From positions 16,274 to 80,273 of the forward strand of contig JAKVBI010000019.1 in NCBI GenBank assembly GCA_022447545.1: a DNA stretch of 64,000 nt, given 5' to 3'. Source of the stretch: Myxococcota bacterium. GTDB taxonomy: Bacteria > Myxococcota_A > UBA9160 > SMWR01. Shown here one piece after another: positions 35,817 to 60,987 of the stretch; positions within the stretch are counted from its first letter, which is position 1, and each line of letters opens with the position of its first letter. The position numbers were made by a program, and so were the translations under genes. The notes below the pieces were generated by a model. It saw only the letters and a program-made list of their open reading frames with translations. It searched no databases and had not been told where the DNA came from.

Positions 35817-35849
35817 TTGGCTTCTGATGGACGTGAGTCAGGACAGGGG

Positions 35850-41334: not shown

Positions 41335-41496
41335 GAGGAGAGAATGCTGCGCCTGCCCGGTTCCGTCGACCGGCCTGTCAGGATCTGATTCATGAGCCGG
41401 TTGCCTCGTGGGCCGGAAGTGGGGATGCTCGGGTCCCCGGTGGTGATCTGGAGGGGCTTTGTCGCTTCGCCGTGCCGCCTGGATTGCGAGGTACCC

Positions 41497-42756: not shown

Positions 42757-42849
42757 GCCGACACCATAAAGACAACAGGAAATTCCCATCGTCGCCGAAT
42801 CGTCTATTCTTGCAGAGATGAGGAGAAGCCCCTTGAGCCGTTTAGCGCG

Positions 42850-44046: not shown

Positions 44047-44070
44047 GCATCGTCGTGCCAAGAGGCGCTC

Positions 44071-44385
44071 CTATTGCAGGATGCAGCCCAGGTCCTTGTC
44101 GTAGAGCGCAACGCGCTCAATCGCGCCCAGGACCGAGGCTCGTACACCGGGAGGGGTTGTCAGGACCTCTGCATCGATGGGGTCCATCTCGGGCATCATG
44201 TCGGGTCGGCAGGCGTCGGCGGTGCGCTCGTCCACATAGATGCACGAGCACATCTGCTTGGCGAGGAAGCCTGCCCCCGTCTCCGCGAGCTCCTGCAATG
44301 GGCGGATGTAAGCCACGTAGATGAAAACGCCGGCGAGTCCGGCGGCGATCAGGGCGATCCAAGTGATGCGCGATCTGCGGCTCAC
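44071..44385 (-). CDS. small single-pass membrane protein, Cys-containing
   Basis: 104 aa. N-terminal TM ITWIALIAAGLAGVFIYVAYI. 4-nt overlap with the upstream serine hydrolase stop. Confidence 0.5.
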   Translation of the reverse strand: MSRRSRITWIALIAAGLAGVFIYVAYIRPLQELAETGAGFLAKQMCSCIYVDERTADACRPDMMPEMDPIDAEVLTTPPGVRASVLGAIERVALYDKDLGCILQ

Positions 44386-45569: not shown

Positions 45570-45620
45570 TGCTCTGCTGGAGCCTTTCGGGGGTGCAGGT
45601 CTTTCAAGGGAAGACGCTGC

Positions 45621-46484
45621 TCAATCCGGAAGGGGTGGATTGGCTCGCGCGAGGATTCCCTCGTAGCGTTGGCGAACGCGGGCGTCGTGATCCTCACTGG
45701 GGGGTAGGATCCAGAAGCGGCCCTCGCGAATTCCCTCGAGGCAGTAGGCGGCGACGTCCTCGGGCTCTGAAAGACGGAATTGAACCCCTGAACTTTGCGC
45801 TAATTCTTCCATGCTGACGTAGGAGGCTGGCTGACTGTCGGGGGCGGCGAACTTGGGGGGGCGGTTTCGTCCCGAATTCAGAATGTTGGTATTGACCAGG
45901 TGGGGGCCGGGAAACAGGGCGGATGCGCCAATGGACGCCTCTTCCATTAGAAGCTGATAGTGGAGGGTCTCGGTGATGCTGGTCAGTGCGGCCTTGGTAG
46001 CTGAGTAGATGGGCGTCGTGGGTAGGATCGTCAGCCCACCATTGCCCGAAGAGGTGTTGACCACCCAGCCCTCCTCACCGCCCTCGAGCATCCGGGGGAC
46101 GAAGGCGCGGATGCCGTGAATCACTCCCCAGACGTTGACCCCCAGGCCCCAGCTCCAATCGGTTTCGGGGAGGGTCCAGATTCGGCGCTGTGCCTCGCCG
46201 AGGCCAACGCCGGCATTGTTGAACAGCAGATGGACGGCCCCCTTTGTGGCGAAGACGTGGTCTGCCAGTCCGGTGACCGAGGCGGCGTCGCTCACATCGG
46301 TGACCCGGGCATCGACCTCGCCGTGGGATCCGCTCAACTCCGCCGCAGTACGTCGAAGTGCTTCCTCCTCGACATCGGCAATGACGACACGCGCTCCCTG
46401 GGCCACGAGTGCTGCGGCCAGGGCGCGTCCCACCCCGCTCGCACCCCCGGTGATCACTGCGACGCGGTCGGTGAAATCACGCAA
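45621..46484 (-). CDS. SDR family oxidoreductase
   Basis: VAVITGGASGVGRALAAALVAQGARVVIADV and YSATKAAL. Confidence 0.9.
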   Translation of the reverse strand: MRDFTDRVAVITGGASGVGRALAAALVAQGARVVIADVEEEALRRTAAELSGSHGEVDARVTDVSDAASVTGLADHVFATKGAVHLLFNNAGVGLGEAQRRIWTLPETDWSWGLGVNVWGVIHGIRAFVPRMLEGGEEGWVVNTSSGNGGLTILPTTPIYSATKAALTSITETLHYQLLMEEASIGASALFPGPHLVNTNILNSGRNRPPKFAAPDSQPASYVSMEELAQSSGVQFRLSEPEDVAAYCLEGIREGRFWILPPSEDHDARVRQRYEGILARANPPLPD

Positions 46485-46555
46485 GTCTGGAACCTCCGGT
46501 TTCAGGGACCTCTGCGGCCCGGTCGGTGTTCTTGACCTCGTTGGATCTTTTCCAT

Positions 46556-47545
46556 TCAGGCCTCTTGGGAAGAGGAGGGGGCGGTCTCGACATAGAAGTT
46601 CGAGAAGTAGCGCCGGAATTCGGGAATCGGGCCGTCCCCATCACACAACAGGGGGTGCACCCGATGAAGTTTGTGTTGCCAGATTCTGATGTCGTCTTCG
46701 ACGCCGGCCGCTGTGTTTTCGATGGATCGTACCCCCATCGCTTCTTCCAGGGATCCGGGCTTTTCTCTTCGCCGGGTAAACGCGAATCGAAGCTCGACTT
46801 CTTGGCTGTCGATGGGGGTCACGAGGGTCATGAGCAGGGTCTCGGCCAAGCCCGATAGGCGTGTGCATTTCTGTCCCGCCCCATTCTGGACGGTGACCAC
46901 GCGGCTCTGGTAGGTGCGTACGCTTCCGTCGGGGTCTTCGGCCGTGTGGGGGCCCTCCACCATGCTGCAGCGCATGACACCGTCGTAGGTGGTCTCGCCT
47001 TCGGGCACTGCATCCATGCCGTGCACGTAGCGGAAGTGAGCCGGGTCCACTCCATTCTCTGCGATTTCCTGGGGGTTGGAGCGGAAACGCCAGTGGTAGC
47101 GAGTGAGCGGCTCCCAGTCGGGATCTCCCACCTCCGGGTATTCGACGACATCGAAGGTCGGTTTTTCACCCCGAGGGTGGTACCAGCCCCAGATGATCTG
47201 ATTGCGCTCGACCGTCGGATGCGCCGTAACCGCCCCCGCCCGGTCACCGCCGCTCGGGGTGCGCTTCGCGTAGGGGACATCCACGCAGCGCCCCTCGGTG
47301 GAGATCGCCCAGCCGTGGAAGGGGCAGCGCAACGTTTCACCCTCGACGCGTCCGCCGTGGCCCAGATGCGCGCCGAGGTGGGGACAGTAGGCGTCCATGA
47401 GGCAGGGGGTTCCGTGTTCGGTCCGGAACAACACCAAATCGCGTCCGAAATAGTGGACCGGTCGGACTTCGCCGGTTGTGAGTTCGTCGGAGTAGGCGAT
47501 GAAGAACCAGCCGAAAGGAACCGGCAGCGGGAGCGGTTCGACCAT
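46556..47545 (-). CDS. Rieske [2Fe-2S] domain oxygenase (alpha-only, KshA/phthalate-family-like)
   Basis: The ATG at 47545 is preceded by AGGAG. CPHLGAHLG...CPFHGWAIS. Iron motif DPAHFRYVHG. Confidence 0.88.
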   Translation of the reverse strand: MVEPLPLPVPFGWFFIAYSDELTTGEVRPVHYFGRDLVLFRTEHGTPCLMDAYCPHLGAHLGHGGRVEGETLRCPFHGWAISTEGRCVDVPYAKRTPSGGDRAGAVTAHPTVERNQIIWGWYHPRGEKPTFDVVEYPEVGDPDWEPLTRYHWRFRSNPQEIAENGVDPAHFRYVHGMDAVPEGETTYDGVMRCSMVEGPHTAEDPDGSVRTYQSRVVTVQNGAGQKCTRLSGLAETLLMTLVTPIDSQEVELRFAFTRRREKPGSLEEAMGVRSIENTAAGVEDDIRIWQHKLHRVHPLLCDGDGPIPEFRRYFSNFYVETAPSSSQEA

Positions 47546-47573
47546 GGGGAGGCTCCTGATGAGTCGAAGAAGG

Positions 47574-48731
47574 TTAACTGGAGAAGGTTTGGCGGGGGGG
47601 GCCGATACGCTGTGCGATTGGCGTGAGCGCATCGAGTTCGAGTCCGTAGCACTCGACGGCGTTGAGGCCGAAGATCGCCTCCATTTCGTTGGGGGGAACG
47701 CCCTTGAAGGATTCCCCGATGCGCTCATGGGTTCTCGGCCAGAGACCTTCGGGGTGGGGGTAGTCGGTGCCCCACATGAGATTCTTCACGCCGATCTGAT
47801 GGCGCCGGGAAACTCCGAGGGGGTCGAGCAGCGATGCGCCGACCCAGCAATTGCGCGCGAAGTATTCGCTGGGCTCCATGGAGAGGTGGCCGCGAAAGTT
47901 TCCGAGTTTGCCGCTGGTGTGTTTTTCGGAAGCGCGAATCTCCATCATTTCGAGAATCGCGGGCAAGTGGAATTCGCTGACTTCGGTGACCGCGAACTTC
48001 AGGCGGGGGAACCGCTCGAAGACGCCTCCGAAGATCAGCACCCACAGTGGGCGGACTGCCCAGAAAACGAACTCCGTCAGGTAGATGCCCATCATGCCGG
48101 GCAGGTCTTCGAAGTCCGGGGTGGGGCCCGAGTGCGTGTGTACCACCATTTTCAGGTCCTGGCAGGCGGCCCACAGGGGGTCGTAGCGTGGGTGGTGGTA
48201 GGCGGGATATTCGCCCCAGAGCGCGGGGATCAGGATGCCGCGCAAACCGGCTTCGTGTGCTCGACGGGTTTCTTCGACGGCATCGTCGACGTCGTAGACG
48301 GCTGGGATCACGGCCACACCGATCCGTCGTTCGGGTGCCTCAGCGCAGAATTCTGTGAGCCACCGGTTGTGGGCCCGTGCGCCGGCCCACTGCAGTTCGG
48401 GATCCACGTTCCAGGGCTTGAGGCCGAGTCCGGCACCAAACGGGGGTGCATTCATTTCGGTGATGCCGTCTGGGAAAAGTACTTCCGCAGCGACCCCATC
48501 GGCGTCGATCACGGCCAGACGTCGATCGGAGTCCCAAGCGCCCTGGAGTTCGGACTCGATGCCGCGGCGCCATTTCTCGTTGAACTCTTTGACGAAGAAC
48601 TTCTTCTCGGCGATCCGCGTCTGTTCGAGCTGTTGGGGCAGGGCGACATCGAAGGCGTCTCGATAGCGCGGGTCCACATATTCGCGGTAACGCTCCGGCG
48701 GAAGCCCTGCGTGCCCATCGGAAGAGATCAT
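47574..48731 (-). CDS. amidohydrolase-2 (PF04909-type) family protein
   Basis: MISSDGHAGLPPERYREYVDPRY at the N-terminus and LMWGTDYPHPEG near the C-terminus. The start is taken at ATG 48731. Confidence 0.82.
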   Translation of the reverse strand: MISSDGHAGLPPERYREYVDPRYRDAFDVALPQQLEQTRIAEKKFFVKEFNEKWRRGIESELQGAWDSDRRLAVIDADGVAAEVLFPDGITEMNAPPFGAGLGLKPWNVDPELQWAGARAHNRWLTEFCAEAPERRIGVAVIPAVYDVDDAVEETRRAHEAGLRGILIPALWGEYPAYHHPRYDPLWAACQDLKMVVHTHSGPTPDFEDLPGMMGIYLTEFVFWAVRPLWVLIFGGVFERFPRLKFAVTEVSEFHLPAILEMMEIRASEKHTSGKLGNFRGHLSMEPSEYFARNCWVGASLLDPLGVSRRHQIGVKNLMWGTDYPHPEGLWPRTHERIGESFKGVPPNEMEAIFGLNAVECYGLELDALTPIAQRIGPPRQTFSS

Positions 48732-48832
48732 CAGATATCGGTCCACAGGGCTCTCCCGTATTTTTAGGTCAGTGGAGCATTGTAGATGGATCGGTTGATC
48801 GCCGAAAGCCGAGCCGTGTAGGATGCGTCGAC

Positions 48833-50110
48833 ATGAGCGGCCCCGTTTCACCCCATCGAGCCCGCTACGCCTTGGGCCTGCTTTTCGTGGTCTACGCGGT
48901 CAGCCTGGTCGACCGCCAGATCCTCGCCATGTTGCTCGAGGACATCAAACTCGAGATGGGGCTCAAGGATTGGCAGCTCGGCTTTCTGTCGGGACTTGCC
49001 TTCGCGCTGTTTTACAGCACGGCGGGGATTCCCCTGGCTCGTTTGGCGGATCGTGGCTCCAGGCGCGCCGTGATCGCTGCGGGCATGATTGCCTGGAGCA
49101 TTGCGACGGCCTTGAGCGGGGCTGCGCGTGGTTTCTGGCAACTCGCGCTGGCAAGGGTGGCGGTAGGCGTGGGTGAAGCGGCGGGAAGTCCTCCGAGTCA
49201 CTCTCTGATTTCCGATCTGTTTCCGCCCGAGAGCCGCGCACGTGCCATCGCCATCTACACCATGGGGGCCAACGTCGGGGTCATGGGTGGGTACATGCTT
49301 GGCGGCTGGTTGGCCCAGAGCATTGGCTGGCGTTGGACGTTCGTAGTCATCGGCCTGCCCGGGGTGCTGGTTGGTTTGCTGGTGCGATTCACACTTCCCG
49401 AGCCGCCTCGTGGGGCCATTGAGGATCGAGCCGACGACGAGCCCCAGCCGCCGCTGGGCGAGGCCTTGAGATATCTGTTCAGGCTGCGTGCCTATCGCCA
49501 GCTCGCTGCGGCGACGTCACTGTACAACGTTGCTTCCTACGGATTCATGTTCTGGGTGCCCGCATTCATGCAGCGCGTACACGAAATGGATCGCACGGAG
49601 ATCGGTTTGTGGTTGGGGCCCATTGCGGGTTTTGTGGGTGCGGCAGGCGCTTTTACGGGTGGTTGGCTGGCGGACATCGGTTCGCGACGTGACGAGCGCT
49701 GGCTGGCGTGGGTTCCGGCGATCGCGGGCATGTTGGGCGCCCCGTGCATTGTCGTCTTCTTGCTGATTCCCGGCGCACATGCCGCCGTGCTCTGGTACGT
49801 GCCCATCACGTTCTTGACCGCCATGTGGACCGGAGGCACCTACTCGGCGGTCCAGGGCCTGGCGAGCCTCCGCATGCGGGCCACCGCGGCCGCGGTTCTT
49901 CTCTTTCTGCTCAACTTCATTGGTTTCGGTCTGGGGCCACAACTGGTCGGCATTCTCAGCGATGTGTTCGAGCCCACCTGGGGTCGGGAATCTCTGCGGT
50001 ACGCGCTGCTCGTCGTCGGGATGTGCAAGGCCTGGGGTTGTGTGCACGGGTTCCTGGCAGCCAAGCACCTTCGTGCTGAGCTGGCGGCCGTGCGAGAAGG
50101 GGAGGCTTGA
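48833..50110 (+). CDS. MFS transporter
   Basis: 425 aa, about 12 TM. LADRGSRR loop motif. Paralogue of 52753..54033. Confidence 0.9.
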   Translation: MSGPVSPHRARYALGLLFVVYAVSLVDRQILAMLLEDIKLEMGLKDWQLGFLSGLAFALFYSTAGIPLARLADRGSRRAVIAAGMIAWSIATALSGAARGFWQLALARVAVGVGEAAGSPPSHSLISDLFPPESRARAIAIYTMGANVGVMGGYMLGGWLAQSIGWRWTFVVIGLPGVLVGLLVRFTLPEPPRGAIEDRADDEPQPPLGEALRYLFRLRAYRQLAAATSLYNVASYGFMFWVPAFMQRVHEMDRTEIGLWLGPIAGFVGAAGAFTGGWLADIGSRRDERWLAWVPAIAGMLGAPCIVVFLLIPGAHAAVLWYVPITFLTAMWTGGTYSAVQGLASLRMRATAAAVLLFLLNFIGFGLGPQLVGILSDVFEPTWGRESLRYALLVVGMCKAWGCVHGFLAAKHLRAELAAVREGEA

Positions 50111-50248
50111 TTGCCGTCGATGCTGGGCCGACGGCAGACTCTTGCCGGAATTTCACGTGGTAGGATAAGACCTGTTTCGCGTCCGATCTCATCAAGGCGA
50201 GCGAGCATTTCGATTCTCAGCCCATCGACCATGGGAGATATGTAGCCG

Positions 50249-50590
50249 TTGGAAACTGCGAACTGGAAGGTCTTTTCCGTCGAAGAACTGACCGAGCACC
50301 GAAATCGCCAAGGGATGCCCTATCTCGAATTTCTGCGGGTTCCGGCTCTTAGCTCTGGTATCTACTTCCTACCTGCCGGAGCCAAAGATCTTCAGAGTCC
50401 GCACGATGAGGACGAGGTCTATTACGTCGTCAGTGGGTCTGCCCGGTTGAAGATGGGCGATGAGGAGCATGTACTCCAGGCAGGCTCGGTCCTGTATGTG
50501 CCAGCGACTTCGTCACACTCGTTCATCGAGATCGAAGAAGACATCACACTTTTGGTGTTTTTTGCATCCGGAGGCCCGTCAGAGGGTTAG
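50249..50590 (+). CDS. cupin domain protein
   Basis: 113 aa. HDEDEVYYVVSGSARLKMGDEEHVLQAGSVLYVPATSSHSF. TTG start, uncertain. Confidence 0.75.
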   Translation: METANWKVFSVEELTEHRNRQGMPYLEFLRVPALSSGIYFLPAGAKDLQSPHDEDEVYYVVSGSARLKMGDEEHVLQAGSVLYVPATSSHSFIEIEEDITLLVFFASGGPSEG

Positions 50591-50768
50591 TTCGTTGGAT
50601 CTCTCGACGATCCGAAGCTGAGAAAGAACGACCTTCATCCAGCGCTGATAGCTACCGTGATAGGCGCTGTGAACGCGATCCCCGCCGGGTATGCCGCGGA
50701 GCCGGGAATCCTCATCTGTTTGGATCTTCCACTGTTCGGGGCCCACCGCGTCCTCGGTTCTTGACACC

Positions 50769-52511
50769 TCAGTTCGGTGGAATGGGTTGCGGCACGCCTC
50801 CGAGCACCGTGCCCCAGACCGGGATGTCCTTCCACGTCGCGGGGTCGACCTCGTAGGGGTCCGCCTCGAGGACCGTGAAATCCGCGCGCTTGCCGGGCCG
50901 GATCGACCCGATCTCCTCTTCGAGCCCGAGGCTTCGTGCCGCCTCCACGGTGATCGCCCGCACTGCCCGGTCTGTCGACAACTTCTGGTCCGCTCCCCAG
51001 ACACGGCCGTCACTTCCGATCCGGTTGACGGCAACCCAGGCCAGGCGCAGAGGCTCCGCGGGTGCCATGGGGTAGTCGGAGTGAAACGAGACGGGGACGC
51101 CGGCGCGCTCGAGTCCCCCCAGCGGTGAGATATCTGCAGCGCGTTCGGGCCCGAAACCGTGCTCGTGGTAGATGGGCGCGAGTTCGTGGGTGTAATAGGC
51201 GTTGTTCGAAACTTCGACTCCCATGCGTGCCAGTCGCTGATGCTGATCCTCACGGGCGTAACCGTAATGTTCGAGCACGATGCGGCGTCCGGGGGAAGGA
51301 TGGGCTCGTTGCTGAGCCTCGATCTGGTCGAGTACCAGGTCGAGGCCGGCATCTCCGTTCACATGGACGTGGATCCCCCATCCCTTTTTCCAGAAGGCTT
51401 CGAGGACCGCCTCCTGTTCCTGCGGTGTCATCATCCACTCGCCGTGGTGACCATCCAGGTAGGGCTCGGACATCTGCATCCGCTGGCTGAAGAAGGCGCC
51501 GTCGGCGTAGTACTTGGCATGCTCGACCACCCGGACACGATCCGTGGAAAGCCACAGCAATCTGGCCGCTGCACGTTCGGCGGCGGTGGCGTCTTCGTGT
51601 TCGCGCAAGAGATACATGGCATTCGGTACGAGCACGATGCGGTAGGGGGCTTCGCCTCTGCGCAACTCGAGATGGAGCAGGGTGAGTTCGGCCAACGCGT
51701 TGATCTGGGGAAACCCCTGTTCGGCGACGGTGGTGAGGCCACCCCGGTGAATGACCTGACTCAGCATCGACAGGCCCTCGAGATAACGCCCCGGCGATGC
51801 CAGGATTCGTACCATTGGGCCGCCGAGGTCGAACGAGGCGGTTTCCCAGAGGTGTCCTGTTTCCCAGTTGGCCTGGGGGTGGGCATCGAAAGCTTGTCGT
51901 TCCATGCCGAGAGTCTCGAGGGCTCGGCTGTTGAAGAACATCTCGTGTACCGAGCGCTGCCACACGAAGATCGGACGCTGGGTCGAGATCGCATCCAGGT
52001 CCGTGCGAGAGAGTGCTCCGTGGTAGGGCTCGTGGTAGCCCCAGACGAGCAGCCAGTCGTCATCCTCGGAGCGCTCGCGGTCCAGTTCGCGCAGTCGCCC
52101 CAGGAAACCTTCTCGGCCGCGGACCGCCTGTGTTCGCCCCCTGGGTGTGGCCCACTCCATGGCAGAGACGATGTCCATGTTGAGGATGGTGGCTCCTAGC
52201 GACGGGTGGAGATGGGGATCGATGAAGCCCGGCAGGAGAATCTTGTCGGCGAAGCGGGAGTCGACCTCGCTGGGGATTTCTCCCAATTGTTTTTGTACGG
52301 ATTCGAGACTGCCCAGTGCAAGGATCTTGCCCGCCTGGACTGCCACGGCTGTGGCCTCGGGCACCGAGGGCTCCAGTGTGTGGACCTTGCGAGCGGTGAA
52401 GATGCGAACCGCTGAGGAATTGGAACCACTCCAGCAGGTGAAAGACAGCAAGAAGGCCACCGTTGCCAGGGCAACGAACGCGAGGCGGGCTCTGCCGAGT
52501 CGTTTCTTCAC
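50769..52511 (-). CDS. amidohydrolase (Amidohydro_3 type), membrane-anchored or secreted
   Basis: LLPGFIDPHLHPSLG metal site, HVHVNGDAG, SFHSDYPMAP. The GTG at 52511 gives VKKRLGRARLAFVALATVAFLLSF. Alternative starts are ATG 52661 and TTG 52673. Confidence 0.82.
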   Translation of the reverse strand: MKKRLGRARLAFVALATVAFLLSFTCWSGSNSSAVRIFTARKVHTLEPSVPEATAVAVQAGKILALGSLESVQKQLGEIPSEVDSRFADKILLPGFIDPHLHPSLGATILNMDIVSAMEWATPRGRTQAVRGREGFLGRLRELDRERSEDDDWLLVWGYHEPYHGALSRTDLDAISTQRPIFVWQRSVHEMFFNSRALETLGMERQAFDAHPQANWETGHLWETASFDLGGPMVRILASPGRYLEGLSMLSQVIHRGGLTTVAEQGFPQINALAELTLLHLELRRGEAPYRIVLVPNAMYLLREHEDATAAERAAARLLWLSTDRVRVVEHAKYYADGAFFSQRMQMSEPYLDGHHGEWMMTPQEQEAVLEAFWKKGWGIHVHVNGDAGLDLVLDQIEAQQRAHPSPGRRIVLEHYGYAREDQHQRLARMGVEVSNNAYYTHELAPIYHEHGFGPERAADISPLGGLERAGVPVSFHSDYPMAPAEPLRLAWVAVNRIGSDGRVWGADQKLSTDRAVRAITVEAARSLGLEEEIGSIRPGKRADFTVLEADPYEVDPATWKDIPVWGTVLGGVPQPIPPN

Positions 52512-52752
52512 CTGACAGGAGGCATAGCTCAGACGGATCGATTCGCTATCGCCTCCCCGGATTCGCCTCCGGATTGGCCTGCTTGGGCACCGAAACCTCG
52601 TCTCCCTGAGACCGCTCGAGCCCTCGAATTGAATACTTCCACAGGAAGTGGATTCGGGCATAGACTGGCGCAATCAGTCTCGGCGCCACCTTGCTGCGGG
52701 CCGGGAAATCGCAGGTACATGGATTGATGCGCGCCCCGGAGAGAATTCTGGC

Positions 52753-54033
52753 ATGACTGCGACGCTTCGAGATAGTCGCGCCTATCTGCGCTACGTGCTC
52801 TTCCTGCTCTTTTTGGTGCAGGGACTCAACATCATTGACCGGCATTTGTTCGGATTACTGATCGAGCCGATCAAAGCGGAGCTGGGCGTTTCCGACGCCG
52901 TCATGGGCTTCATGACGGGGCTCGCCTTCGCGATCTTCTACAGCCTGGTGGGGGTTCCTGTGGCCCGCTGGGCGGATCGGGGGACGCGGCGCGATGTGAT
53001 CTCCATCTGCCTGTTCCTCTGGAGTCTGATGACGGCTGCCTGTGGCTTGGCTCAAACGGTGACGCAGATGGTCATGGCGCGAATCGCTGTTGGTGTCGGC
53101 GAGGCCGGAGGTTCTCCACCTTCTCACGCGCTGATCGCCGACTACTTCCCCTTGGAGGAACGTGGTCGCGCCATGGGATTGGCGTCCATGGGCGGGGCCG
53201 TGGGGATTACCGTTTCTCTCCTGGTCGGGGGTCTGATTGCCGAGGCCTGGGGTTGGCGTGCGGCGTTCTTCGCCATGGGCTTGCCCGGTGTCCTTCTGGC
53301 CATCGTCATTCGTTACACTCTTCGCGAGCCCGAGCGCGGCCGCTACGATCCGCCGCGTCCGAAAACGCCCGTTCTGTCCACCCGTCAGGCCATTCGTCGG
53401 CTGATCGGGATTCCGGCACTCGTTCACATCTCGTTGGCGGGCAGTCTTCATTCGTTCGCCGGTTATGGGGGCGCGACGTGGAACGCCGTCTTCCTGATGC
53501 GTGTTCACGATTTCAGCATTGGCGAGGCGGGCGTGCGGCTTGCCCTGTACAGCTCGCTCGCAGCTGCGGTCAGCGTGTTCGCTGGTGGACGACTGGCTGA
53601 TTCTTGGGGTCGGCGGGACGTGCGCTGGTATCAGTGGATGCCGGCACTGGGAGCACTTGCGCACATTCCCTTCGCATTCGCTTTCCTGCTCTGGCCTGAC
53701 GGAGAATCCGCCGTCTGGTTTTTGATTCCCTCGGCGCTGCTGGGGGGTCTTTGGGCCGCCCCGGGCCACGCCATGGTGCAGAGCCTGGCCCCGCAGCAGA
53801 TGCGGGCCACGGCATCGGCTCTGATGCTGTTGATGTTCAATTTGATCGGTTTCGGGCTCGGTCCCTGGGTGGTGGGGATCCTCAACGACGTGCTCGAGCC
53901 AAGGTTCGGCGCGGAGGCGGTGCGCTACTCGCTCTTGCTGATTGGCTTGACTTCGCTGTGGGGGACGGCGCACAACTTTCTGGCCGCGCGCACCCTGGCG
54001 CGCGACCTAGACCACGGGAGTGCGACGACATGA
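52753..54033 (+). CDS. MFS transporter
   Basis: 426 aa from the ATG at 52753. WADRGTRR loop. Long stretches align with 48833..50110 (for example ARIAVGVGEAGGSPPSHALIADYFP versus ARVAVGVGEAAGSPPSHSLISDLFP). Confidence 0.9.
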   Translation: MTATLRDSRAYLRYVLFLLFLVQGLNIIDRHLFGLLIEPIKAELGVSDAVMGFMTGLAFAIFYSLVGVPVARWADRGTRRDVISICLFLWSLMTAACGLAQTVTQMVMARIAVGVGEAGGSPPSHALIADYFPLEERGRAMGLASMGGAVGITVSLLVGGLIAEAWGWRAAFFAMGLPGVLLAIVIRYTLREPERGRYDPPRPKTPVLSTRQAIRRLIGIPALVHISLAGSLHSFAGYGGATWNAVFLMRVHDFSIGEAGVRLALYSSLAAAVSVFAGGRLADSWGRRDVRWYQWMPALGALAHIPFAFAFLLWPDGESAVWFLIPSALLGGLWAAPGHAMVQSLAPQQMRATASALMLLMFNLIGFGLGPWVVGILNDVLEPRFGAEAVRYSLLLIGLTSLWGTAHNFLAARTLARDLDHGSATT

Positions 54034-55175
54034 ACCTCGATCCCATCCCCCAGGTTCCCACCGACGATCCCTTCCCGCTGTATGACGTACTGCGTGAGGA
54101 ACACCCCATGCTCCGCGTCGAGGAGCGAGACCTCTGGGTGGCTTCGCGCTACACGGACGTGCGGGCCATGCTCGAGAATCCGGACGTCTGGTCGTCGGCT
54201 CATGGCGTCGTTCCCAGTCGCTTCAAGCCCGACAAGCCCACCATCATCGCCATGGATGCACCACGCCACACGGTGCTGCGGAAGTCCGTGAGTCGAGCCT
54301 TCACGCCGCGGCGCATCGACGTGCTCTCGAAACGAATCCGTGAGATCGCACGCGAACTGATCGACGAATTTCCCGCGAGTGGCGAGTTCGATGTATTCCA
54401 CGCCTTCACCGATCCGTTGCCCATGTACGTCATGGCGGCTCTGCTGGGTGTCGGCCGCGAAGAGCGAGCAATGTTCAAGCGCTGTGGCGACGCCATCGTC
54501 TATGCCTCGGACACTCCACCCGACGAGTTACACGCAGCTCAGTCGGAGTTGACCGATTATCTGGCGGTCGTATTCGAGGAGCGTCGGCGGGAGCCGCGAG
54601 AGGATCTGATCAGCGTGCTCGTGTCAGATTCGCCCGAGGGCAAGGCACTCGACGAGGAGGAGATGCTGGGGCTGTGTTTCTTGTTGCTCGTGGCGGGGAC
54701 TGAGACGACCACCAGTGCATTGGGCAACGGGCTCCTGTTGCTCGACCGGTTTCGCGCAGAACGTGACTGGGTCGCCGCCGATCCGGCGCGTGTCCACGCG
54801 GCCTCGGAAGAAGTATTGCGTTTCGACCCGCCCGTTCACGGACTGTCTAGAGTGGCCAGCCGAGATACCGAGGTGCATGGCGTGCCCGTCTCCGAAGGTG
54901 AATGGGTCCACATGCTGTTCGCAGCTGCCAACCGCGACCCGCGTACATTCGAAAACCCCGAGCGCTTCGATCCCGCCCGCACCCGCAACCACCACGTCTC
55001 CTTCGGTTGGGGGGTTCACTTCTGCCTGGGGGCGAATCTTGCGCGGATGGAGCTTCGCATTGGTCTGCAGGAGTTGCTGGCCCGGATGCCCAACTACCGA
55101 GTCGTGACCGACGGGGTCGAACGTCTGCGTTCCGATACCAATCGCGGCTTCGCGCGCCTTCCCGTAGAGATCTGA
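54030..55175 (+). CDS. cytochrome P450
   Basis: 381 aa from the ATG at 54030 (ATGA overlap with the MFS stop). LLVAGTETTTS, EEVLRFDPP, heme loop FGWGVHFCLGANLAR. Confidence 0.9.
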   Translation: MNLDPIPQVPTDDPFPLYDVLREEHPMLRVEERDLWVASRYTDVRAMLENPDVWSSAHGVVPSRFKPDKPTIIAMDAPRHTVLRKSVSRAFTPRRIDVLSKRIREIARELIDEFPASGEFDVFHAFTDPLPMYVMAALLGVGREERAMFKRCGDAIVYASDTPPDELHAAQSELTDYLAVVFEERRREPREDLISVLVSDSPEGKALDEEEMLGLCFLLLVAGTETTTSALGNGLLLLDRFRAERDWVAADPARVHAASEEVLRFDPPVHGLSRVASRDTEVHGVPVSEGEWVHMLFAAANRDPRTFENPERFDPARTRNHHVSFGWGVHFCLGANLARMELRIGLQELLARMPNYRVVTDGVERLRSDTNRGFARLPVEI

Positions 55176-55281
55176 TCCCCGTCAGGCGCAGACCGGCGAT
55201 GTCGTCCTCTTCGTGGTGGATCTTCCGGAGGGCCATTCCGAGGGCTTTCCGGAGAACTGAAACGGAGCCATCGGGATGAGG

Positions 55282-56232
55282 TCAGCCCAGGCGACCGGCG
55301 GCTTCGGCTCGCTTGCGTCCCCGCTCCACCATGTCCCGCCAGTTTTTGCGAATCATCCTCAGGTAGGGGGGAGGAGGATCCGGTAGCCAGGTGGTGTGCT
55401 CTGGCGGATCCGGCCAGCGGTAGGGGAGATGTTCGACCCAGCCTGGCTCCGGCGCAGATTCGAAGAGGGCGAGAGTGTCGAGCAGGATCTGGCGGTGCAG
55501 CGCGGAGTCTCCCACGATTCCCAGGGGTCGGCCCATGGGGAATTCGATGGCGGCTACCCGGGGCATTCCGACGATGCGATGGAGTGACCAGATCGAACTG
55601 AGGACTACGGTGGGAATTCCCGCCTTCTCGATTTCTCTTGCGACCAGACCGGCCGTCAGTTGGCACTGGGGTCAGACGGGGACCAGCAGGGCGAGGTCCA
55701 CCTCCTCCGAGACCATGGCTTCGGCGATGGCGGTGCAACTGGGCTCCAGTCGACGCAGGTCCGGACCCTGAAATCCCATGATGGAGTAATGGCTCGGCGC
55801 GGCCTCTCCGATCGTTTCCTCCCGTTCCAGTTCTCGGAGCAGCGGAACGGGGAAGCAAACGTCGGGATCGGCCAGCACGTGACTCGTCTCGATGTGGAGG
55901 TGGTCGGCTTGGAGGGTCTCCGCTGTCACGTCGCGTTGCAGCCGGCGCCAGGTCGGATCCCCCCAGGTCGGTCGGCGTCGTTCGGTTTCCATGTCGAACC
56001 GGGTGTCGCCTTTCATGGAGAGGCCCGCGGTGGACACCACGCTGATGCGGCTCTGGGACAGGCTCTTCTCGACCGGTGCCCAGGGGATGTCCTTTACCGC
56101 TTCGCCATAGCGGACGTTCGATCTCAGGAGTTCGAAGAGCGCCACTTCGAGAAATCGATAGGGGTCGCATTCACCGGGGCGCGGAGGGTCACCCCAGCGG
56201 CATTCGCGATCTCGGAAGGGGTTGCTGCCCAT
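55282..56232 (-). CDS. PrdB/GrdB-family (glycine/sarcosine/betaine/D-proline reductase B-like) protein, candidate selenoprotein with in-frame TGA at 55672..55674
   Basis: ORFs 55672..56232 and 55282..55566 are in the same frame, and the 35 codons between them contain no stop. Read-through gives DLALLVPV-U-PQCQLTAGLVAREIEKAGIPTVVLSS...MPRVAAIEFPMGRPLG. This parallels the PrdB region LTAGUGTCHRSAVIVQRAIEEAGIPT...PRAVAPLVPMG as I remember it. Confidence 0.75.
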
Positions 56233-56351
56233 GTCGAAGCCTGCCTCTTATGCGCGTCGGGATTCTCTGGATTCTGGCACCAGCTTACCGAATCACCGAC
56301 GCTCCCCATGCCGTGCTCTCCATGGAAAGTCGGTCGGGTCCGAGGCGTCGG

Positions 56352-57299
56352 TCACGGGTCGTCGGACTTTCGGTTCGACTCGAGGGATTTGGCCTGTTGT
56401 CCCAAAAACCGGTTCAGCTGGAAGTCGAAGCGGCTGGTGGCACCCCCGCCGCGGATGCGGGCGTAGGGTGCCCAGCGGGGCGGGCTCGCAGCTTCGGGAA
56501 TGTCTCCCATCACGGTGACCCGCTGGATGATCCGCTCGCCTTCGAAGTCGTTGAGGACGAAGTGTTGGGTACAGCGATTGTCCCACATGGCCACGGTGCC
56601 CTCGCTCCAACGACGACGTACCGTGAAACGTGGACTCGACATCCACCGCGTCAGGTGGCCGAGCAGTAGTTCGCTCTCCTCATGGCTGAGTTCCACGATG
56701 CGTCGGGTGAAGTGTTCGTTGACAAACAAGGATTTGCGTTTCGTCACCGGGTGGATGCGTACCACCGGATGGATCGTCATTTCCTCGGGCTTGCCATGGG
56801 GGGTGGCATCATGCAAAGCCGTCAACCCCTCGCAAAGCTCCTGGAGCGGAGGTGAGAGTTCGTCGTAGGCCTTGTAGGCATTGGTCCACATCGTGTCGCC
56901 ACCCACCTCCGGGCACTTCACCATGTGGAGGATGGCGAGAATCGAAGGCTGGGAACGGAACGTGATGTCGCTATGCCACTCGTCGGCAATGCCGCCACTG
57001 CTGGCTGCCAGTTCGAAGATCTCGGATTGATCGGAGAAGGGGTTACGCAGATTGGGGTGCCCCTCCAGTTGTCCGAAGTGCCGACCGAAGGCGATGTGCT
57101 CCTCAGGTGTGATGCTCTGGTCTGGGAAGAAGAGCACGAGGTGCTGGGTCAGCAGGGAGAGGATCTGTTCCGCCTCCATCGGGCCAACCTCGCGAAGCGA
57201 GATGCCTCGAACTTCCGCCCCGAGAGAAGCCGAGAGGGGGACAACCTCCGGTGTTTTCTCGAGGTTGGTGACTTCATGTGCAGAACTCATGCTCTTCAC
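56352..57299 (-). CDS. TauD/TfdA family Fe(II)/2-oxoglutarate dioxygenase
   Basis: 315 aa. WHSDITFRSQPSILAILHMVKCPEVGGDTMWTN and HPVVRIHPVTKRKSLFVN. Confidence 0.88.
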   Translation of the reverse strand: MKSMSSAHEVTNLEKTPEVVPLSASLGAEVRGISLREVGPMEAEQILSLLTQHLVLFFPDQSITPEEHIAFGRHFGQLEGHPNLRNPFSDQSEIFELAASSGGIADEWHSDITFRSQPSILAILHMVKCPEVGGDTMWTNAYKAYDELSPPLQELCEGLTALHDATPHGKPEEMTIHPVVRIHPVTKRKSLFVNEHFTRRIVELSHEESELLLGHLTRWMSSPRFTVRRRWSEGTVAMWDNRCTQHFVLNDFEGERIIQRVTVMGDIPEAASPPRWAPYARIRGGGATSRFDFQLNRFLGQQAKSLESNRKSDDP

Positions 57300-57350
57300 T
57301 ATACCAGTCGGACCCCAGGGCCGCGTCGGCCGGCGTCGTTCCCCACAGGG

Positions 57351-58238
57351 TTAGCGGGATTGGGTCAACCAGTCTTCCAACAGCCGATTGACGGTGTCCG
57401 GGACGTCCTGTTGAACCCAGTGGGACGCGTCGGGGAGGTATTCGAGGGTCAGGTCGCGTACATACTCTTCCGTTCCGTAGGTGGTCTCCTTGAGTAGCGC
57501 GATGTCCTGTTCGCCCCAGATCATCAGGGTGGGGGTTTCGATGACGGGCCATCCCAGCGCATCCTGGCGTCCCTTTCCGCCGCGCAGGAGCGCTCGGTAC
57601 CAATGGATCATTGCGCGTGCCGCACCCGGGCGCATGACGTTGGCGGCGTAGATTGCCTGGTCGTCCCGACTGAAGCGCTCGGGATGAACGGAAGTGCGCG
57701 CGAACATCTCACCCACCCGAGCGCCCTGGTTCAATGTCAGCATTCTCTCGGGCAGCCAGGGCAACTGGAAGAAAAGCATGTACCAGGAGCGCAGCATCTG
57801 ACGGGGATGATTGCGCATGCGCGCCGAGACGTTCCCCGGGTGCGGAACGTTCATGATGACCAGGCGCTCTAGGGCAGTGGGATGTCGTGTGGCGAAGACC
57901 CAGGCGACGATGGCTCCCCAGTCGTGTCCCAGCAGGGTGATCTCGTTGGCGCCAGACTCCTGGATGAGTCCCGCTACGTCCGCAACGAGTTTCTCGATCG
58001 CATAGGATTCGACGCCGAGAGGCTTGTCGCTTTCGCCGTAACCGCGGAGGTCCGGGGCCCAAACGCGGTACCCGAGGTCTGCGAGCAGAGGCATCTGGTG
58101 ACGCCAGGAATACCAGCACTCGGGAAACCCGTGGAGGCAAAGGGCCAGCCGTGTTGCACTGGGATCGCGTTCGATCTTGGCCACGTGGAACCGCAACCCC
58201 TCTGGGGTGGACACGAATTCGTGCTGGATTTCGCTCAC
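57351..58238 (-). CDS. alpha/beta hydrolase (epoxide hydrolase / haloalkane dehalogenase-like)
   Basis: LCLHGFPECWYSWRHQMPLLADLGYRVWAPDLRGYGESD and nucleophile elbow LLGHDWGAIVAW. Confidence 0.88.
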   Translation of the reverse strand: MSEIQHEFVSTPEGLRFHVAKIERDPSATRLALCLHGFPECWYSWRHQMPLLADLGYRVWAPDLRGYGESDKPLGVESYAIEKLVADVAGLIQESGANEITLLGHDWGAIVAWVFATRHPTALERLVIMNVPHPGNVSARMRNHPRQMLRSWYMLFFQLPWLPERMLTLNQGARVGEMFARTSVHPERFSRDDQAIYAANVMRPGAARAMIHWYRALLRGGKGRQDALGWPVIETPTLMIWGEQDIALLKETTYGTEEYVRDLTLEYLPDASHWVQQDVPDTVNRLLEDWLTQSR

Positions 58239-59028: not shown

Positions 59029-60987
59029 CTAGCGTATGAGTTGGTTGGGCTCGGGTCGGGCTCTGCGCGAGAGTCGATAGATTGTGTGACTTCCCAGTCG
59101 CGCCGTTGCCTGAGCATTTCTTTCGAAGTGTGTCTCGTCGAGTGCTGGAAATTCCGCGTGTTCCCGAGGTCCAATGACCACGTAGTCCACCTCGTAGCGG
59201 TCGAGCAGATCTGCGGTCTCTGCGTCCCCTTCGAACATTCTGGCGACGTCCGTCGCTCGCTGCTCGAAGGGGATGCCGTGGTTGTAGAGCCAGCGCTTCG
59301 AACCCAGCACGATCTGTCGACCCGACAGCATGGGAACCGGGTGGTGCATGTCCGAACCTGTCAGGAATACGGCGTCGACGGGTGTCTGATCGCGCACGAA
59401 TTCTCCCACCCGCACCTCCTCGTGGCTCAGCATCACGGAATTCCCGAGGACCTCATGGGTCACCGCCAGAGCTCCCGACAAACACATCGTGAGCGTCAGC
59501 AGGGCAGGTGCCCATTTTCGGCGCCCTGTGTCGAACCACACCCCCAACCAGCGTCCCACCAGGATCGCGCCGCCCAGCTGGAAATACGCCAGAAGTTTGA
59601 TGTTCTCGTACGCGAGAGGGGTCACGGTGACGAGGTTTGCCAGGGGGAAGAGGGCCACGAGAGGACCGCTTGCCCAGCGCAGGTGGCGTGGTGCCTTCCA
59701 CCAGGCGATCGGCACCAACAGGAGGAAGGGGGCGGCGTTCCAGATCCAGAAATGCAACCAATCGAGGGGGGTCTCGGCCGAGCGGGGCCAGCCCGCGAGC
59801 AGACGCAGGTGGCTGGGTGCCAGGGACAGGTGTTGCCAGATCCAGACCAACTGGGGCAGAGCCAACAGGGTCGAGAACGCCCCGAACCAGAGCCAGCGTC
59901 TCCGTACCGCTCTCCCGTTGCGCCGCAGGTCGGCCCACGCGTAGAAGACACTGGCGAGTCCGACCCCCAGAAACGAGTGCGAGTGCACCAGGGGAAGACT
60001 CCCCAACAATGCGCCGGCCAGAGCCAGGCCGAAGGTCTCGTCGTTATGTCTCGAGGCCGTAGTCAGCAGCCAGAGCACTGCGACCCCGATCGCCATGCCA
60101 TAGGGGGCTGATCGCGAGGCGAGGAATTGATTGCCGATCACATTGGCGTAGGCGAGGAGCGGGTCGGCGTTGCCATAGGTGTAGTTGGTTTTCAGGGCGG
60201 CTTGGATCGAGGTTCCCGCCCAAAGATCCTGAAAGAACAAAGCGAAGCCGAGCCCACCGGACAGTAGGAACAAGGCGAGTGCCAGGTAGGCGGCGCTGCG
60301 CGGTGCATCGTCGGTCAGACGGCGCGCCAAGGCGAACGACATGAGGCCGAACACCGAGATGGATACCCAGGCGCCGAGTGCGAAGGCTTCCCTTGGGGTC
60401 AGACCCAGGCTGCGAAAACTCGCGACCGAGAAGTCCGAGACGAAGGGGTACGCGAGGGGCCAGCCGGCAAAGAACGGATACTCGGGTGGGTGGAGATTTC
60501 CACGTTCGAAAAAGGCACTGGCCAGGGAGGCGTGGAGCGTGAGATCTCCCCAGGTGGTTCCCGCCGAAAACAGCGATCCGCCCGGGCCGACCCGAAAGAA
60601 GTGGTTGTGGACCAGGTAGGTGAGCAGCCCGCCAAGGATCATCAGCGCTAGGATCAGGCGGCTTCCTGCGCCCCGGTTTCTAAGCGCCTGTGCGAACCCC
60701 TTCGCGTCGGCACCCAGGCGTTCGCGTCCTCGTCGGTTGACGTGGAGTTCCCAGGCCGCCAAGACCAGGCTGGCGAAGACGGCGCCCTGAGAAGCAGTGG
60801 TGACGCCGGCCGCGCCCGTACCGATCCCGGGCATCAGCGCGAACAGCAGGGGGAGCCAGAGGACGAGGGTCAGCCCCAGTACGTTTCCCAGGGCCAGGCG
60901 TTCGTGGGCACGGAGGGGGAGGGACAAACGGGTCGTCAGCAACACCCCCCACAGGACGGCCGCCGCCAGTTGCAGAACTGCCAGCAC
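59029..60987 (-). CDS. large polytopic membrane protein (GT-C glycosyltransferase-like / DUF2298-like)
   Basis: 652 aa with many TM segments. Loop WGDLTLHASLASAFFERGNLHPPEYPFFAGWPLAYPF. C-terminal soluble part ending DLLDRYEVDYVVIGPRE, as in DUF2298/PMT-like proteins. Family assignment tentative. Confidence 0.45.
   Translation of the reverse strand: MLAVLQLAAAVLWGVLLTTRLSLPLRAHERLALGNVLGLTLVLWLPLLFALMPGIGTGAAGVTTASQGAVFASLVLAAWELHVNRRGRERLGADAKGFAQALRNRGAGSRLILALMILGGLLTYLVHNHFFRVGPGGSLFSAGTTWGDLTLHASLASAFFERGNLHPPEYPFFAGWPLAYPFVSDFSVASFRSLGLTPREAFALGAWVSISVFGLMSFALARRLTDDAPRSAAYLALALFLLSGGLGFALFFQDLWAGTSIQAALKTNYTYGNADPLLAYANVIGNQFLASRSAPYGMAIGVAVLWLLTTASRHNDETFGLALAGALLGSLPLVHSHSFLGVGLASVFYAWADLRRNGRAVRRRWLWFGAFSTLLALPQLVWIWQHLSLAPSHLRLLAGWPRSAETPLDWLHFWIWNAAPFLLLVPIAWWKAPRHLRWASGPLVALFPLANLVTVTPLAYENIKLLAYFQLGGAILVGRWLGVWFDTGRRKWAPALLTLTMCLSGALAVTHEVLGNSVMLSHEEVRVGEFVRDQTPVDAVFLTGSDMHHPVPMLSGRQIVLGSKRWLYNHGIPFEQRATDVARMFEGDAETADLLDRYEVDYVVIGPREHAEFPALDETHFERNAQATARLGSHTIYRLSRRARPEPNQLIR

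What the first reader, a model, noticed from the sequence alone, without database searches (positions are those of the whole stretch)
55282..56232. In-frame TGA in a U-x-x-C motif: candidate selenocysteine PrdB/GrdB-family protein that the ORF track splits into two ORFs
- The 186-aa and 94-aa minus-strand ORFs are in the same frame and are separated by a single TGA (55672..55674) plus 35 stop-free codons.
- Read-through yields a 316-aa protein: ...VSEEVDLALLVPV-U-PQCQLTAGLVAREIEKAGIPTVVLSSIWSLHRIVGMPRVAAIEFPMGRPLG...
- The TGA sits exactly where selenocysteine lies in D-proline reductase PrdB (..TAG-U-GTC....IEEAGIPT....PR......PMG).
- The N-terminal half also matches PrdB: ISVVSTAGL, FPVPLLRELEREETIGEAAPSHYSIMG.
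- Immediately downstream (55644..55669 on the mRNA strand), CCAG-U-GCC...GGU-CUGG can form a 7-bp bulged hairpin, a possible bacterial SECIS.
- No PrdA, GrdA, GrdE or GrdC partner is present, so this is an orphan member of unknown function.
Basis: partly seen in the sequence, partly recalled or inferred. Interest (0 to 1): 0.65.

Follow-up and report, generated by a model that had tools for sequence, protein, structure and literature searches.

The report
Split selenoprotein gene, PrdB-like, marine
The two neighbouring ORFs are one gene for a 316-residue selenocysteine protein of the PrdB/GrdB superfamily, a marine selenoprotein family catalogued since 2005, so this is a correct but ordinary annotation repair and the protein's real substrate is still unknown.

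Summary
The 186-aa and 94-aa minus-strand ORFs share a frame and are joined by one TGA (55672..55674) plus 35 open codons.

The selenocysteine reading is strongly supported:
- 97 homologous loci from Myxococcota, Gammaproteobacteria, Spirochaetales and metagenomes all carry TGA at this column.
- The downstream third evolves like coding sequence, with invariant E202, P224-R225, P232 and G238.
- Full-length relatives have Cys at that position (CPVC, CPRC, CPDCC).
- TGA is otherwise the normal stop codon in this window.

A SECIS-like hairpin lies at 55639..55658. Its six codons show no synonymous change across 17 orthologues (permutation p<1e-5). The sister clade has a hairpin at a similar distance, with compensatory changes.

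It is not a D-proline reductase subunit. It scores 111 bits against a PrdB cut-off of 300. No PrdA, GrdE or GrdA partner turned up in the 38 Pfam-scanned window ORFs or the five annotated related loci, and no neighbour is conserved across 44 loci. The surrounding genes are oxygenases.

The family has been listed as the abundant marine "PrdB" UxxC selenoprotein since the 2005 Sargasso Sea and 2008 GOS surveys. It is a new member of a known kind. Function is inferred only; the sel genes could not be checked.

The parts
55282..56232 (-). Complete gene: 316 codons including one in-frame UGA (Sec187), plus the terminal TGA at 55282..55284
   Evidence: Orthologues align over residues 1-308/316 through the stop. 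Positions 1+2 versus 3 are equally conserved on both sides of the UGA.
55672..56232 (-). N-terminal part as annotated in public records (186 aa, P0001, 'hypothetical protein MK489_18605'). It covers the end of the Pfam GRDB model.
   Evidence: P0001 is 100% identical. PF07355 scores 31.6 bits against a threshold of 22, with model positions 212-344 of 347 ending 4 residues before the UGA.
55672..55674 (-). UGA codon 187, read as selenocysteine (inferred)
   Evidence: TGA in 97 of 97 homologous loci. Cys in full-length relatives P0149, P0199, P0202, P0203, P0232 and P0246. The codon before it (GTC) is invariant.
55663..55665 (-). Cys190 codon, the resolving Cys of the U-P-Q-C motif
   Evidence: Cys in 96% of 96 family sequences. 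In the AF2 model of Cys-form P0199 the equivalent residue sits in the first turn of the helix that starts right after the Sec-equivalent Cys168.
55639..55658 (-). SECIS-like hairpin, nt +17..+36 from the U of UGA. Pairs: U17-A36, G18-C35, bulged A19, C20-G34, G21-C33, G22.U32, C23-G31, C24-G30. Loop GGUCU.
   Evidence: RNAalifold consensus on 12 distinct sequences. Codons 193-198 have zero synonymous differences in 17 orthologues, against a gene mean of 0.50, permutation p<1e-5. Free energy is -7.7 kcal/mol. The single-sequence z-score is not distinctive.
55282..55671 (-). C-terminal 129 codons after the UGA. Public records either leave them uncalled or call them as separate small 'hypothetical proteins'.
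   Evidence: 44 fragment clusters. E202, P224, R225, P232 and G238 are invariant and W273 is in 98% of 96 sequences; the PrdB model TIGR04483 aligns across residues 50-273.
56244..56249 (-). Possible Shine-Dalgarno AAGAGG, 11 nt before the ATG at 56232
   Evidence: Read directly and not tested. The start codon is supported by the conserved MGSNP/MGNVP N-termini.

Best explanation
Window 55282..56232 (minus strand) is one gene for a 316-residue selenoprotein of the GrdB/PrdB superfamily.

Translation (inferred from standard bacterial Sec insertion). The ribosome reads UGA187 as selenocysteine. A short hairpin 13 nt downstream, with loop GGUCU and a bulged A, would recruit SelB with Sec-tRNA(Sec).

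Protein chemistry (inferred). Sec187 and Cys190 (U-P-Q-C) sit at the N-terminal end of an alpha-helix in a Rossmann-like beta-alpha-beta domain. They would form a redox-active selenol/thiol pair. Sec would attack a substrate, Cys190 would resolve the adduct into a selenenylsulfide, and a cellular dithiol such as thioredoxin would re-reduce it.

What it is not. It is a stand-alone enzyme with no conserved partner gene. It is not the B subunit of a Stickland D-proline or glycine reductase. Its substrate is unknown.

Shown: one reading frame, the conserved UGA, Cys homologues, the RNA-level constraint and family membership. Inferred: actual Sec insertion, the redox cycle and partner independence.

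Confidence is about 0.9 for 'real selenoprotein gene' and about 0.5 for the stand-alone redox mechanism.
For: One frame with a single TGA.

Conservation of the UGA and what follows it:
- TGA at the same column in 97 loci across several phyla, never a sense codon or another stop.
- The terminal stop of the same genes varies among TGA, TAG and TAA.
- TGA terminates 22 of 28 Pfam-validated genes in the window, so the code is not reassigned.
- The part after the UGA shows the same coding signature as the part before it: positions 1+2 are 75-84% identical and position 3 is 36-53%.
- It carries family-invariant residues.

Cys at the Sec column in full-length relatives. Cys and Sec forms occur side by side in an Acidimicrobiia clade.

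Hairpin:
- Six consecutive codons without synonymous change, p<1e-5.
- The sister-clade hairpin at a similar distance from the UGA (nt +15 to +31, against +17 to +36 in the window) is 98.4% paired. It shows G-C to A-U in 6 sequences and U-A to A-U in 3, and exceeds 500 of 500 shuffles.
- It has the same stem-bulge-stem-GGUC-loop layout as the E. coli fdhF element, whose sequence was verified and folded.

Family: Pfam GRDB above threshold; the best NCBIfam match is PrdB.

The helix N-cap position of the motif comes from a model with pLDDT 95.

No partner:
- No PrdA or GrdE domain in 38 scanned window ORFs.
- No conserved neighbour across 44 loci.
- None in five annotated loci of four further relatives.
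Against: - No tRNA-Sec, selA, selB or selD in the 64-kb window. The rest of the MAG could not be searched.
- The window hairpin is not thermodynamically unusual on its own (z = -0.13). In its own subfamily it shows invariance rather than covariation.
- No Rfam SECIS model matches.
- The redox mechanism rests on the motif, a predicted structure of a 27-32% identical Cys homologue, and analogy.
- A partner encoded elsewhere in the genome cannot be excluded.
Confidence: 0.8

Rival explanations
1. It is the genuine selenoprotein subunit PrdB of a D-proline reductase. Its PrdA (pyruvoyl) partner is encoded elsewhere in the genome.
For: The best NCBIfam hit is TIGR04483 PrdB, covering 216 of 238 model positions. 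JGI and the marine selenoproteome papers label relatives 'D-proline reductase PrdB'.
Against: - The score is 111 bits against an equivalog cut-off of 300.
- No prdA-like gene in the window or in the annotated loci of relatives. No conserved neighbour across 44 loci.
- The window is rich in O2-dependent enzymes (3 P450s, 2 Rieske oxygenases, TauD), which does not fit a Stickland fermenter.
Confidence: 0.06
2. It is a substrate-specific 'protein B'-type component. It works with unlinked GrdA/GrdE/GrdC-like or unknown partners to cleave a C-N or C-X bond of an abundant marine small molecule such as an osmolyte.
For: Characterised members of the superfamily differ mainly in substrate: glycine, sarcosine, betaine and proline (NCBIfam names). 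A GrdB-like protein is discussed for fluoroacetate dehalorespiration (PMC10838667, listed). The family is abundant in ocean metagenomes.
Against: No partner genes were seen. The protein lacks the roughly 210-residue N-terminal half of GrdB/F/H, because matches start at model positions 212-223.
Confidence: 0.1
3. It is a pseudogene, or a genuinely truncated 186-aa protein followed by an unrelated 94-aa ORF.
For: Public gene calls end at the TGA and call the remainder separately. No sel genes are in the window.
Against: - A nonsense mutation would not be the same codon at the same column in 97 loci from several phyla.
- The downstream part is under purifying selection, with invariant residues.
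- The 35 codons between the TGA and the ATG are conserved as protein.
Confidence: 0.02
4. The UGA is read through, but not as selenocysteine. Examples would be near-cognate Trp/Cys suppression or a lineage-specific reassignment.
For: The Sec machinery was not seen in the window. The window hairpin is modest at -7.7 kcal/mol.
Against: - TGA terminates 22 of 28 validated genes here.
- The aligned residue in relatives is Cys within CxxC, the classic Sec/Cys pair.
- A constrained hairpin follows the UGA at the distance expected for a bacterial SECIS.
- The family is an accepted selenoprotein family.
Confidence: 0.03

Closest known systems
Marine 'proline reductase PrdB' UxxC selenoprotein family (Sargasso Sea 2005, PMC1088965; GOS 2008, PMC2398784; 2021 marine trace-element survey, PMC9402790)
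   Same: Same Pfam family (pfam07355), same UxxC motif, same marine metagenomic habitat, and mostly Sec forms with few Cys forms: 42 Sec to 1 Cys in the Sargasso Sea and 235 to 110 in GOS. The window gene is a member.
   Different: Nothing essential. Those papers lump the clade with true PrdB and assign proline reduction by name. The present data (score below the cut-off, no partner, aerobic context) argue that this name is unearned.
D-proline reductase subunit PrdB of Clostridium sticklandii / Clostridioides difficile (TIGR04483)
   Same: Homologous over almost the whole PrdB length (residues 50-273 against model positions 19-234 of 238, E 5e-32). Sec in U-x-x-C followed by ...AGIPT...PR...P.G... 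motifs.
   Different: - 111 bits against a cut-off of 300.
- About 45 extra residues at each end.
- No prdA, prdC, prdD, prdE or prdF nearby.
- The host carries many oxygenases.
Glycine/sarcosine/betaine reductase selenoprotein B (GrdB, GrdF, GrdH; PF07355, TIGR01917, TIGR01918)
   Same: Pfam GRDB hit above the gathering score. The UGA falls 4 residues after the end of the Pfam model. It maps to about model position 350 of the GrdB HMM. I recall this as the GrdB Sec position; that point is from memory and was not tested.
   Different: Only the C-terminal half of GrdB is present. Scores of 48-51 bits compare with cut-offs of 65-800. No grdA, grdE or grdC.
E. coli fdhF SECIS element
   Same: A hairpin shortly after the UGA with a lower stem, a single 5' bulged base, an upper stem and a loop starting GGUC. 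Both encode an in-frame GGU CUG (sequence verified, folds).
   Different: - The loop GU lies 3 nt further from the UGA.
- The bulge is A, not U.
- The loop has 5 nt, not 4.
- SelB binding is untested.

Membership tests
GrdB/PrdB superfamily (Pfam PF07355 GRDB) | Profile match at or above Pfam's gathering score | tested here: met
   31.6 bits against 22, E 1.4e-7, residues 47-183 on model positions 212-344 of 347
GrdB/PrdB superfamily (Pfam PF07355 GRDB) | Sec or Cys in a U/C-x-x-C motif, followed by a conserved C-terminal domain | tested here: met
   U-P-Q-C. The column is Sec/Cys in 92% and the second Cys in 96% of 96 sequences. E202, P224-R225, P232 and G238 are invariant.
D-proline reductase PrdB (NCBIfam TIGR04483, equivalog) | Score at or above the equivalog cut-off of 300 bits | tested here: not met
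   111.1 bits
D-proline reductase PrdB (NCBIfam TIGR04483, equivalog) | Encoded with prdA (pyruvoyl proprotein) and other prd genes | tested here: not met
   No such domain in 38 scanned window ORFs. No conserved neighbour across 44 loci. None in L106 or L109-L112. Genes elsewhere in the genome were not testable.
Glycine/sarcosine/betaine reductase protein B (TIGR01917, NF040794, NF040795, TIGR01918) | Full-length match above the cut-off, including the N-terminal half of about 210 residues | tested here: not met
   48.6-51.1 bits against cut-offs of 65.45-800. Matches begin at model positions 212-223.
Bacterial selenoprotein gene | In-frame UGA conserved in orthologues, with conserved coding sequence downstream | tested here: met
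   97 of 97 loci have TGA. The coding signature after the UGA equals that before it.
Bacterial selenoprotein gene | Homologues with Cys aligned to the UGA | tested here: met
   P0149, P0202 and P0203 CPVC; P0169 CSIC; P0199 CPDCC; P0232 CPAC; P0246 CPRC. Cys clade P0271-P0276.
Bacterial selenoprotein gene | SECIS hairpin immediately downstream of the UGA | tested here: inconclusive
   - Hairpin at nt +17..+36 with zero synonymous change over 6 codons, p<1e-5.
- The sister clade shows compensatory pairs.
- No covariation within the window's own subfamily.
- The single-sequence z-score is -0.13.
- No Rfam hit.
- SelB binding is untested.
Bacterial selenoprotein gene | selA, selB, selC (tRNA-Sec) and selD present in the genome | not testable with these tools
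   None in the 64-kb window and no tRNA-Sec in the 112 fetched loci.
Bacterial selenoprotein gene | Selenium in the protein | not testable with these tools
   Needs 75Se labelling or mass spectrometry

The most novel reading that the evidence does not exclude
This partner-less PrdB-like clade is not a proline reductase. It would be a self-sufficient selenoenzyme with an uncharacterised substrate, used by aerobic, oxygenase-rich marine heterotrophs (Myxococcota, Gammaproteobacteria, Acidimicrobiia, Spirochaetales). One of the most abundant ocean selenoprotein families would then have carried the wrong functional label for twenty years, and it represents a fold with no solved structure.
Probability: 0.3. 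Interest if true: 0.55.

Novelty: new member of a known kind. Interest (0 to 1): 0.3.

Why it matters
Practical. The public record for this MAG annotates only a 186-aa 'hypothetical protein'. Related records split the gene into two hypothetical proteins. Reading UGA as Sec restores a complete, highly conserved enzyme.

Biological. The clade is among the commonest ocean selenoproteins, yet its name 'proline reductase' rests on homology alone. The below-threshold score, the absence of any pyruvoyl partner and the aerobic gene context suggest a different, unknown reaction.

Structure. Neither a PDB sequence search with the window protein nor a fold search with the model of a Cys homologue found a relative. 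A structure or an assay of a Cys form such as P0199 would be informative.

None of this changes what is known about Sec decoding.

Tried and rejected
Rejected as the conserved element. G9-C28 is A.C in 6 of 12 distinct sequences and C6-G31 is broken in 3. Its 5' arm lies in codons with normal synonymous variation of 0.44-0.56.
- **Single-sequence folding as evidence.** Uninformative (z = -0.13).
- **Rfam.** Nothing at gathering scores. Only a meaningless snoRNA hit at E 2.7 in the local region.
- **Conserved operon partner.** All-against-all clustering of ORFs within about 7 kb across 44 loci found only the gene itself, its shadow ORFs and sporadic SDR, luciferase-like, P450 and enoyl-CoA hydratase neighbours in 10 loci or fewer. 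The TauD and alpha/beta-hydrolase genes upstream in the window are not conserved, even within the subfamily.
- **Other split selenoprotein genes in the window.** The scan for TGA-joined ORF pairs was too noisy at 60% GC. The UGCC candidate at 21824 appears, from its coordinates, to be one gene's stop codon followed in frame by the next gene; this was not checked further.
- **Look-ups and searches that failed.**
  - Exact look-up of the window protein's contig: not on record.
A Cys homologue was modelled instead.
  - PDB sequence and Foldseek searches gave no significant relative.
- **Promoter and terminator scan around the gene.** Nothing found.

Full report
**Observation.** On the minus strand the 186-aa ORF 55672..56232 ends with TGA at 55674..55672. 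The same frame stays open for 35 codons up to the ATG of the 94-aa ORF 55282..55566, and continues to a terminal TGA at 55284..55282. Translating 55282..56232 gives 316 codons with one internal stop in the context LLVPV-U-PQCQLTAGLVAREIEKAGIPT.

**Family.** With Cys substituted for the stop, the protein hits Pfam PF07355 (GRDB) at 31.6 bits (gathering score 22). The match covers model positions 212-344 of 347 and ends four residues before the UGA. The best NCBIfam model is D-proline reductase PrdB (TIGR04483), at 111 bits and E 5e-32, aligning residues 50-273 to model positions 19-234 of 238. This is far below the equivalog cut-off of 300. The GrdB, GrdF and GrdH models and the umbrella model TIGR01918 score 48-51 bits, all below their cut-offs, and they match only from model position about 212 onward. 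The protein therefore belongs to the GrdB/PrdB superfamily and is PrdB-sized. It is not an equivalog of any characterised member.

**Is the UGA decoded?**
- *Database proteins.* A protein search returned 142 relatives, almost all 173-190 aa long and covering only 52-59% of the query. These are gene-caller truncations, not real ends.
- *Genome loci.* In 45 loci, tblastn alignments run through the stop to about residue 300. All 43 loci that cover the site have TGA at the same column.
- *Metagenome loci.* Adding 60 metagenome loci gives 97 TGA and no other codon. One stray 'GAC' was an unrelated motif hit.
- *Hosts and subfamilies.* The hosts are labelled Myxococcota, 'Deltaproteobacteria', Gamma- and other Pseudomonadota, and Spirochaetales. 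Two subfamilies appear: PV-U-PQCQ (the window plus roughly 20 loci) and PV-U-PDCC.
- *Stop codon usage.* The terminal stop of the same genes varies among TGA, TAG and TAA. TGA terminates 22 of 28 Pfam-validated genes in the window. The code is not reassigned; the recoding is site-specific.
- *Coding signature downstream.* Against 16 orthologues, the part after the UGA has the same signature as the part before it. Codon positions 1+2 are 75-84% identical and position 3 is 36-53% identical.
- *Invariant residues.* In a 96-sequence family alignment E202, P224, R225, P232 and G238 are invariant, and W273 is present in 98%.

**Cys homologues.** An exhaustive phmmer search with the 129 residues after the UGA found 471 hits. 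Most are C-terminal fragments that gene callers started just after the UGA. The full-length relatives have Cys at the aligned position: CPVC in P0149, P0202 and P0203; CSIC in P0169; CPAC in P0232; CPRC in P0246; CPDCC in P0199. A few have Gly, Ser or Asp instead. In an Acidimicrobiia clade, Cys forms (P0199, P0271-P0276) sit among more than a hundred clusters truncated at 168 aa, which are Sec forms. This is the classical Sec/Cys pattern.

**SECIS.**
Its G9-C28 pair is A.C in half of the distinct subfamily sequences.
- *The conserved hairpin.* RNAalifold on 12 distinct sequences gives U17-A36, G18-C35, bulged A19, C20-G34, G21-C33, G22.U32, C23-G31, C24-G30 with loop GGUCU. This is window 55639..55658, with a free energy of -7.7 kcal/mol.
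- *Synonymous constraint.* In a codon alignment of 17 distinct orthologues (median 69% amino-acid identity), the six codons under this hairpin (193-198, ACG GCC GGT CTG GTC GCA) have no synonymous difference at all. The gene mean is 0.50. Only 13 of 291 informative codons are synonymously invariant, and a run of six never occurred in 100,000 permutations. The one change seen (GTC to GCC in L008) turns G.U into G-C.
- *Sister clade.* The PDCC subfamily has a different, stronger hairpin at a similar distance: CCGGUCC-GUG-GGACUGG at nt +15..+31. It is 98.4% paired in 61 distinct sequences. G-C becomes A-U in six sequences and U-A becomes A-U in three. Its covariation score exceeds 500 of 500 shuffles and every slid control.
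- *Comparison with fdhF.* The layout (lower stem, one 5' bulge, upper stem, loop beginning GGUC) resembles the E. coli fdhF element. I checked that element's sequence against 5,420 genomes and folded it. The roles of its loop GU and its bulge are from my knowledge of the literature.
- *Caveats.* The window hairpin alone is not thermodynamically unusual (z = -0.13). Rfam has no match.

**Machinery.** The window contains no tRNA of any kind. No Rfam family reaches its gathering score in the window. No SelA, SelB or SelD domain occurs among the 38 larger ORFs scanned. No tRNA-Sec occurs in the fetched loci. The remainder of the 150-kb contig and of the MAG could not be searched. This is the main untested point.

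**Context and function.**
- *Neighbours in the window.* Upstream on the same strand lie a TauD-family dioxygenase (56352..57299) and an alpha/beta hydrolase (57351..58238). A cytochrome P450 converges from downstream (53751..55175).
- *Rest of the window.* It holds two more P450s, two Rieske oxygenases, amidohydrolases, MFS transporters and a flagellar cluster.
- *Conservation of neighbours.* Clustering ORFs within about 7 kb across 44 loci shows no conserved neighbour beyond shadow ORFs. SDR and luciferase-like genes recur in 10 loci each, and P450 in 5. Five annotated loci of four further relatives have unrelated neighbours and no PrdA, GrdE, GrdA or PrdC domain.
- *Consequence.* Every characterised member of the superfamily needs a pyruvoyl partner (established knowledge, summarised in PMC13188914). 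This clade is therefore unlikely to be a proline or glycine reductase subunit. The abundance of O2-dependent enzymes argues against a Stickland fermenter.
- *Structure model.* An AlphaFold2 model of the Cys form P0199 (27-32% identical to the window protein) has pLDDT 95. It places the Sec-equivalent Cys168 directly before the N-terminus of helix 169-184, after strand 161-165, with the second Cys in the first helical turn. This is the usual geometry of redox-active CxxC pairs.
- *Solved structures.* No solved structure resembles the fold at E <= 0.001, and none is detectable by sequence.
- *Proposed mechanism.* I therefore propose a stand-alone selenol/thiol redox enzyme. Sec187 attacks, Cys190 resolves the adduct to a selenenylsulfide, and a cellular dithiol re-reduces it. 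This step is inference.

**Comparison with what is known.**
- *Metagenome surveys.* The Sargasso Sea selenoproteome lists 'proline reductase PrdB', UXXC, with 42 Sec genes and one Cys homologue, as its third most abundant selenoprotein family (PMC1088965). The GOS analysis lists 235 Sec and 110 Cys sequences under pfam07355/UxxC (PMC2398784). A 2021 survey of marine metagenomes that extends the earlier GOS analysis attributes 6.4% of selenoprotein genes to proline reductase (PMC9402790).
- *Genome surveys.* These report the same family in Anaeromyxobacter and Geobacter (PMC1794560).
- *NCBI naming.* NCBI already names one relative 'glycine/betaine/sarcosine/D-proline family reductase selenoprotein B'.
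- *Literature gap.* A full-text search for 'PrdB-like', 'GrdB-like' and similar terms found only two papers. Both concern Synergistota fluoroacetate metabolism.

**Verdict.** It adds a member to a known selenoprotein family rather than revealing a new one. The residual interest lies in three points: the family's label is probably wrong, its substrate is unknown, and no structure has been solved.

Noticed in passing
window 4026..21038 (minus strand): A flagellar basal-body and export cluster: FlgE/F/G-like 4026-5240, FliI 6828-8267, FliF 9477-10964, FlgI 12150-13424, FliK-like 16706-18019, FlhA 17890-19941, FlhB 19947-21038. The MAG is labelled Myxococcota, a phylum better known for gliding motility.
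   Followed up: no
window 22564..58238: An oxygenase-rich catabolic region. It has three cytochrome P450s (32650-34068, 35817-37052, 53751-55175), a Rieske ring-hydroxylating alpha subunit (42850-44046), a KshA-like Rieske oxygenase (46556-47728) and TauD (56352-57299). It also has three Amidohydro_2 proteins and two MFS transporters. This suggests aerobic degradation of sterol-like or aromatic compounds.
   Followed up: partly
L014 nt 2751..3602 (TGA at 3324): The same 'Deltaproteobacteria' MAG locus carries a second, divergent PrdB-like gene with its own in-frame TGA (LLAPV-U-PMCNQAVGLVAAELERQGIST). It lies 5 kb upstream of the PDCC-type copy. This looks like a third Sec-containing clade of the family.
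   Followed up: partly
proteins P0199, P0271-P0276 and P0277-P0388: A large Acidimicrobiia/Actinomycetota clade of the same family. A handful are full-length Cys forms (CPDCC). More than a hundred clusters are truncated at exactly 168 aa and are presumably Sec forms. Sec and Cys have exchanged within one clade.
   Followed up: partly
window 59029..60987 (minus strand): A 652-aa ORF whose sequence looks strongly hydrophobic and multi-pass, with no Pfam match at E <= 0.001.
   Followed up: no
window 55672..55677 and orthologues: The codon immediately 5' of the UGA (GTC, Val186) is also synonymously invariant in all 17 orthologues. This may be a codon-context requirement for Sec insertion.
   Followed up: no
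model of P0199: A very confident AlphaFold2 model (pLDDT 95, pTM 0.93) has no Foldseek match in the PDB at E <= 0.001. Only partial resemblances to flavodoxin-like and B12-binding-like alpha/beta domains appear. This fold search, and a PDB sequence search with the window protein, found no experimentally solved relative.
   Followed up: partly
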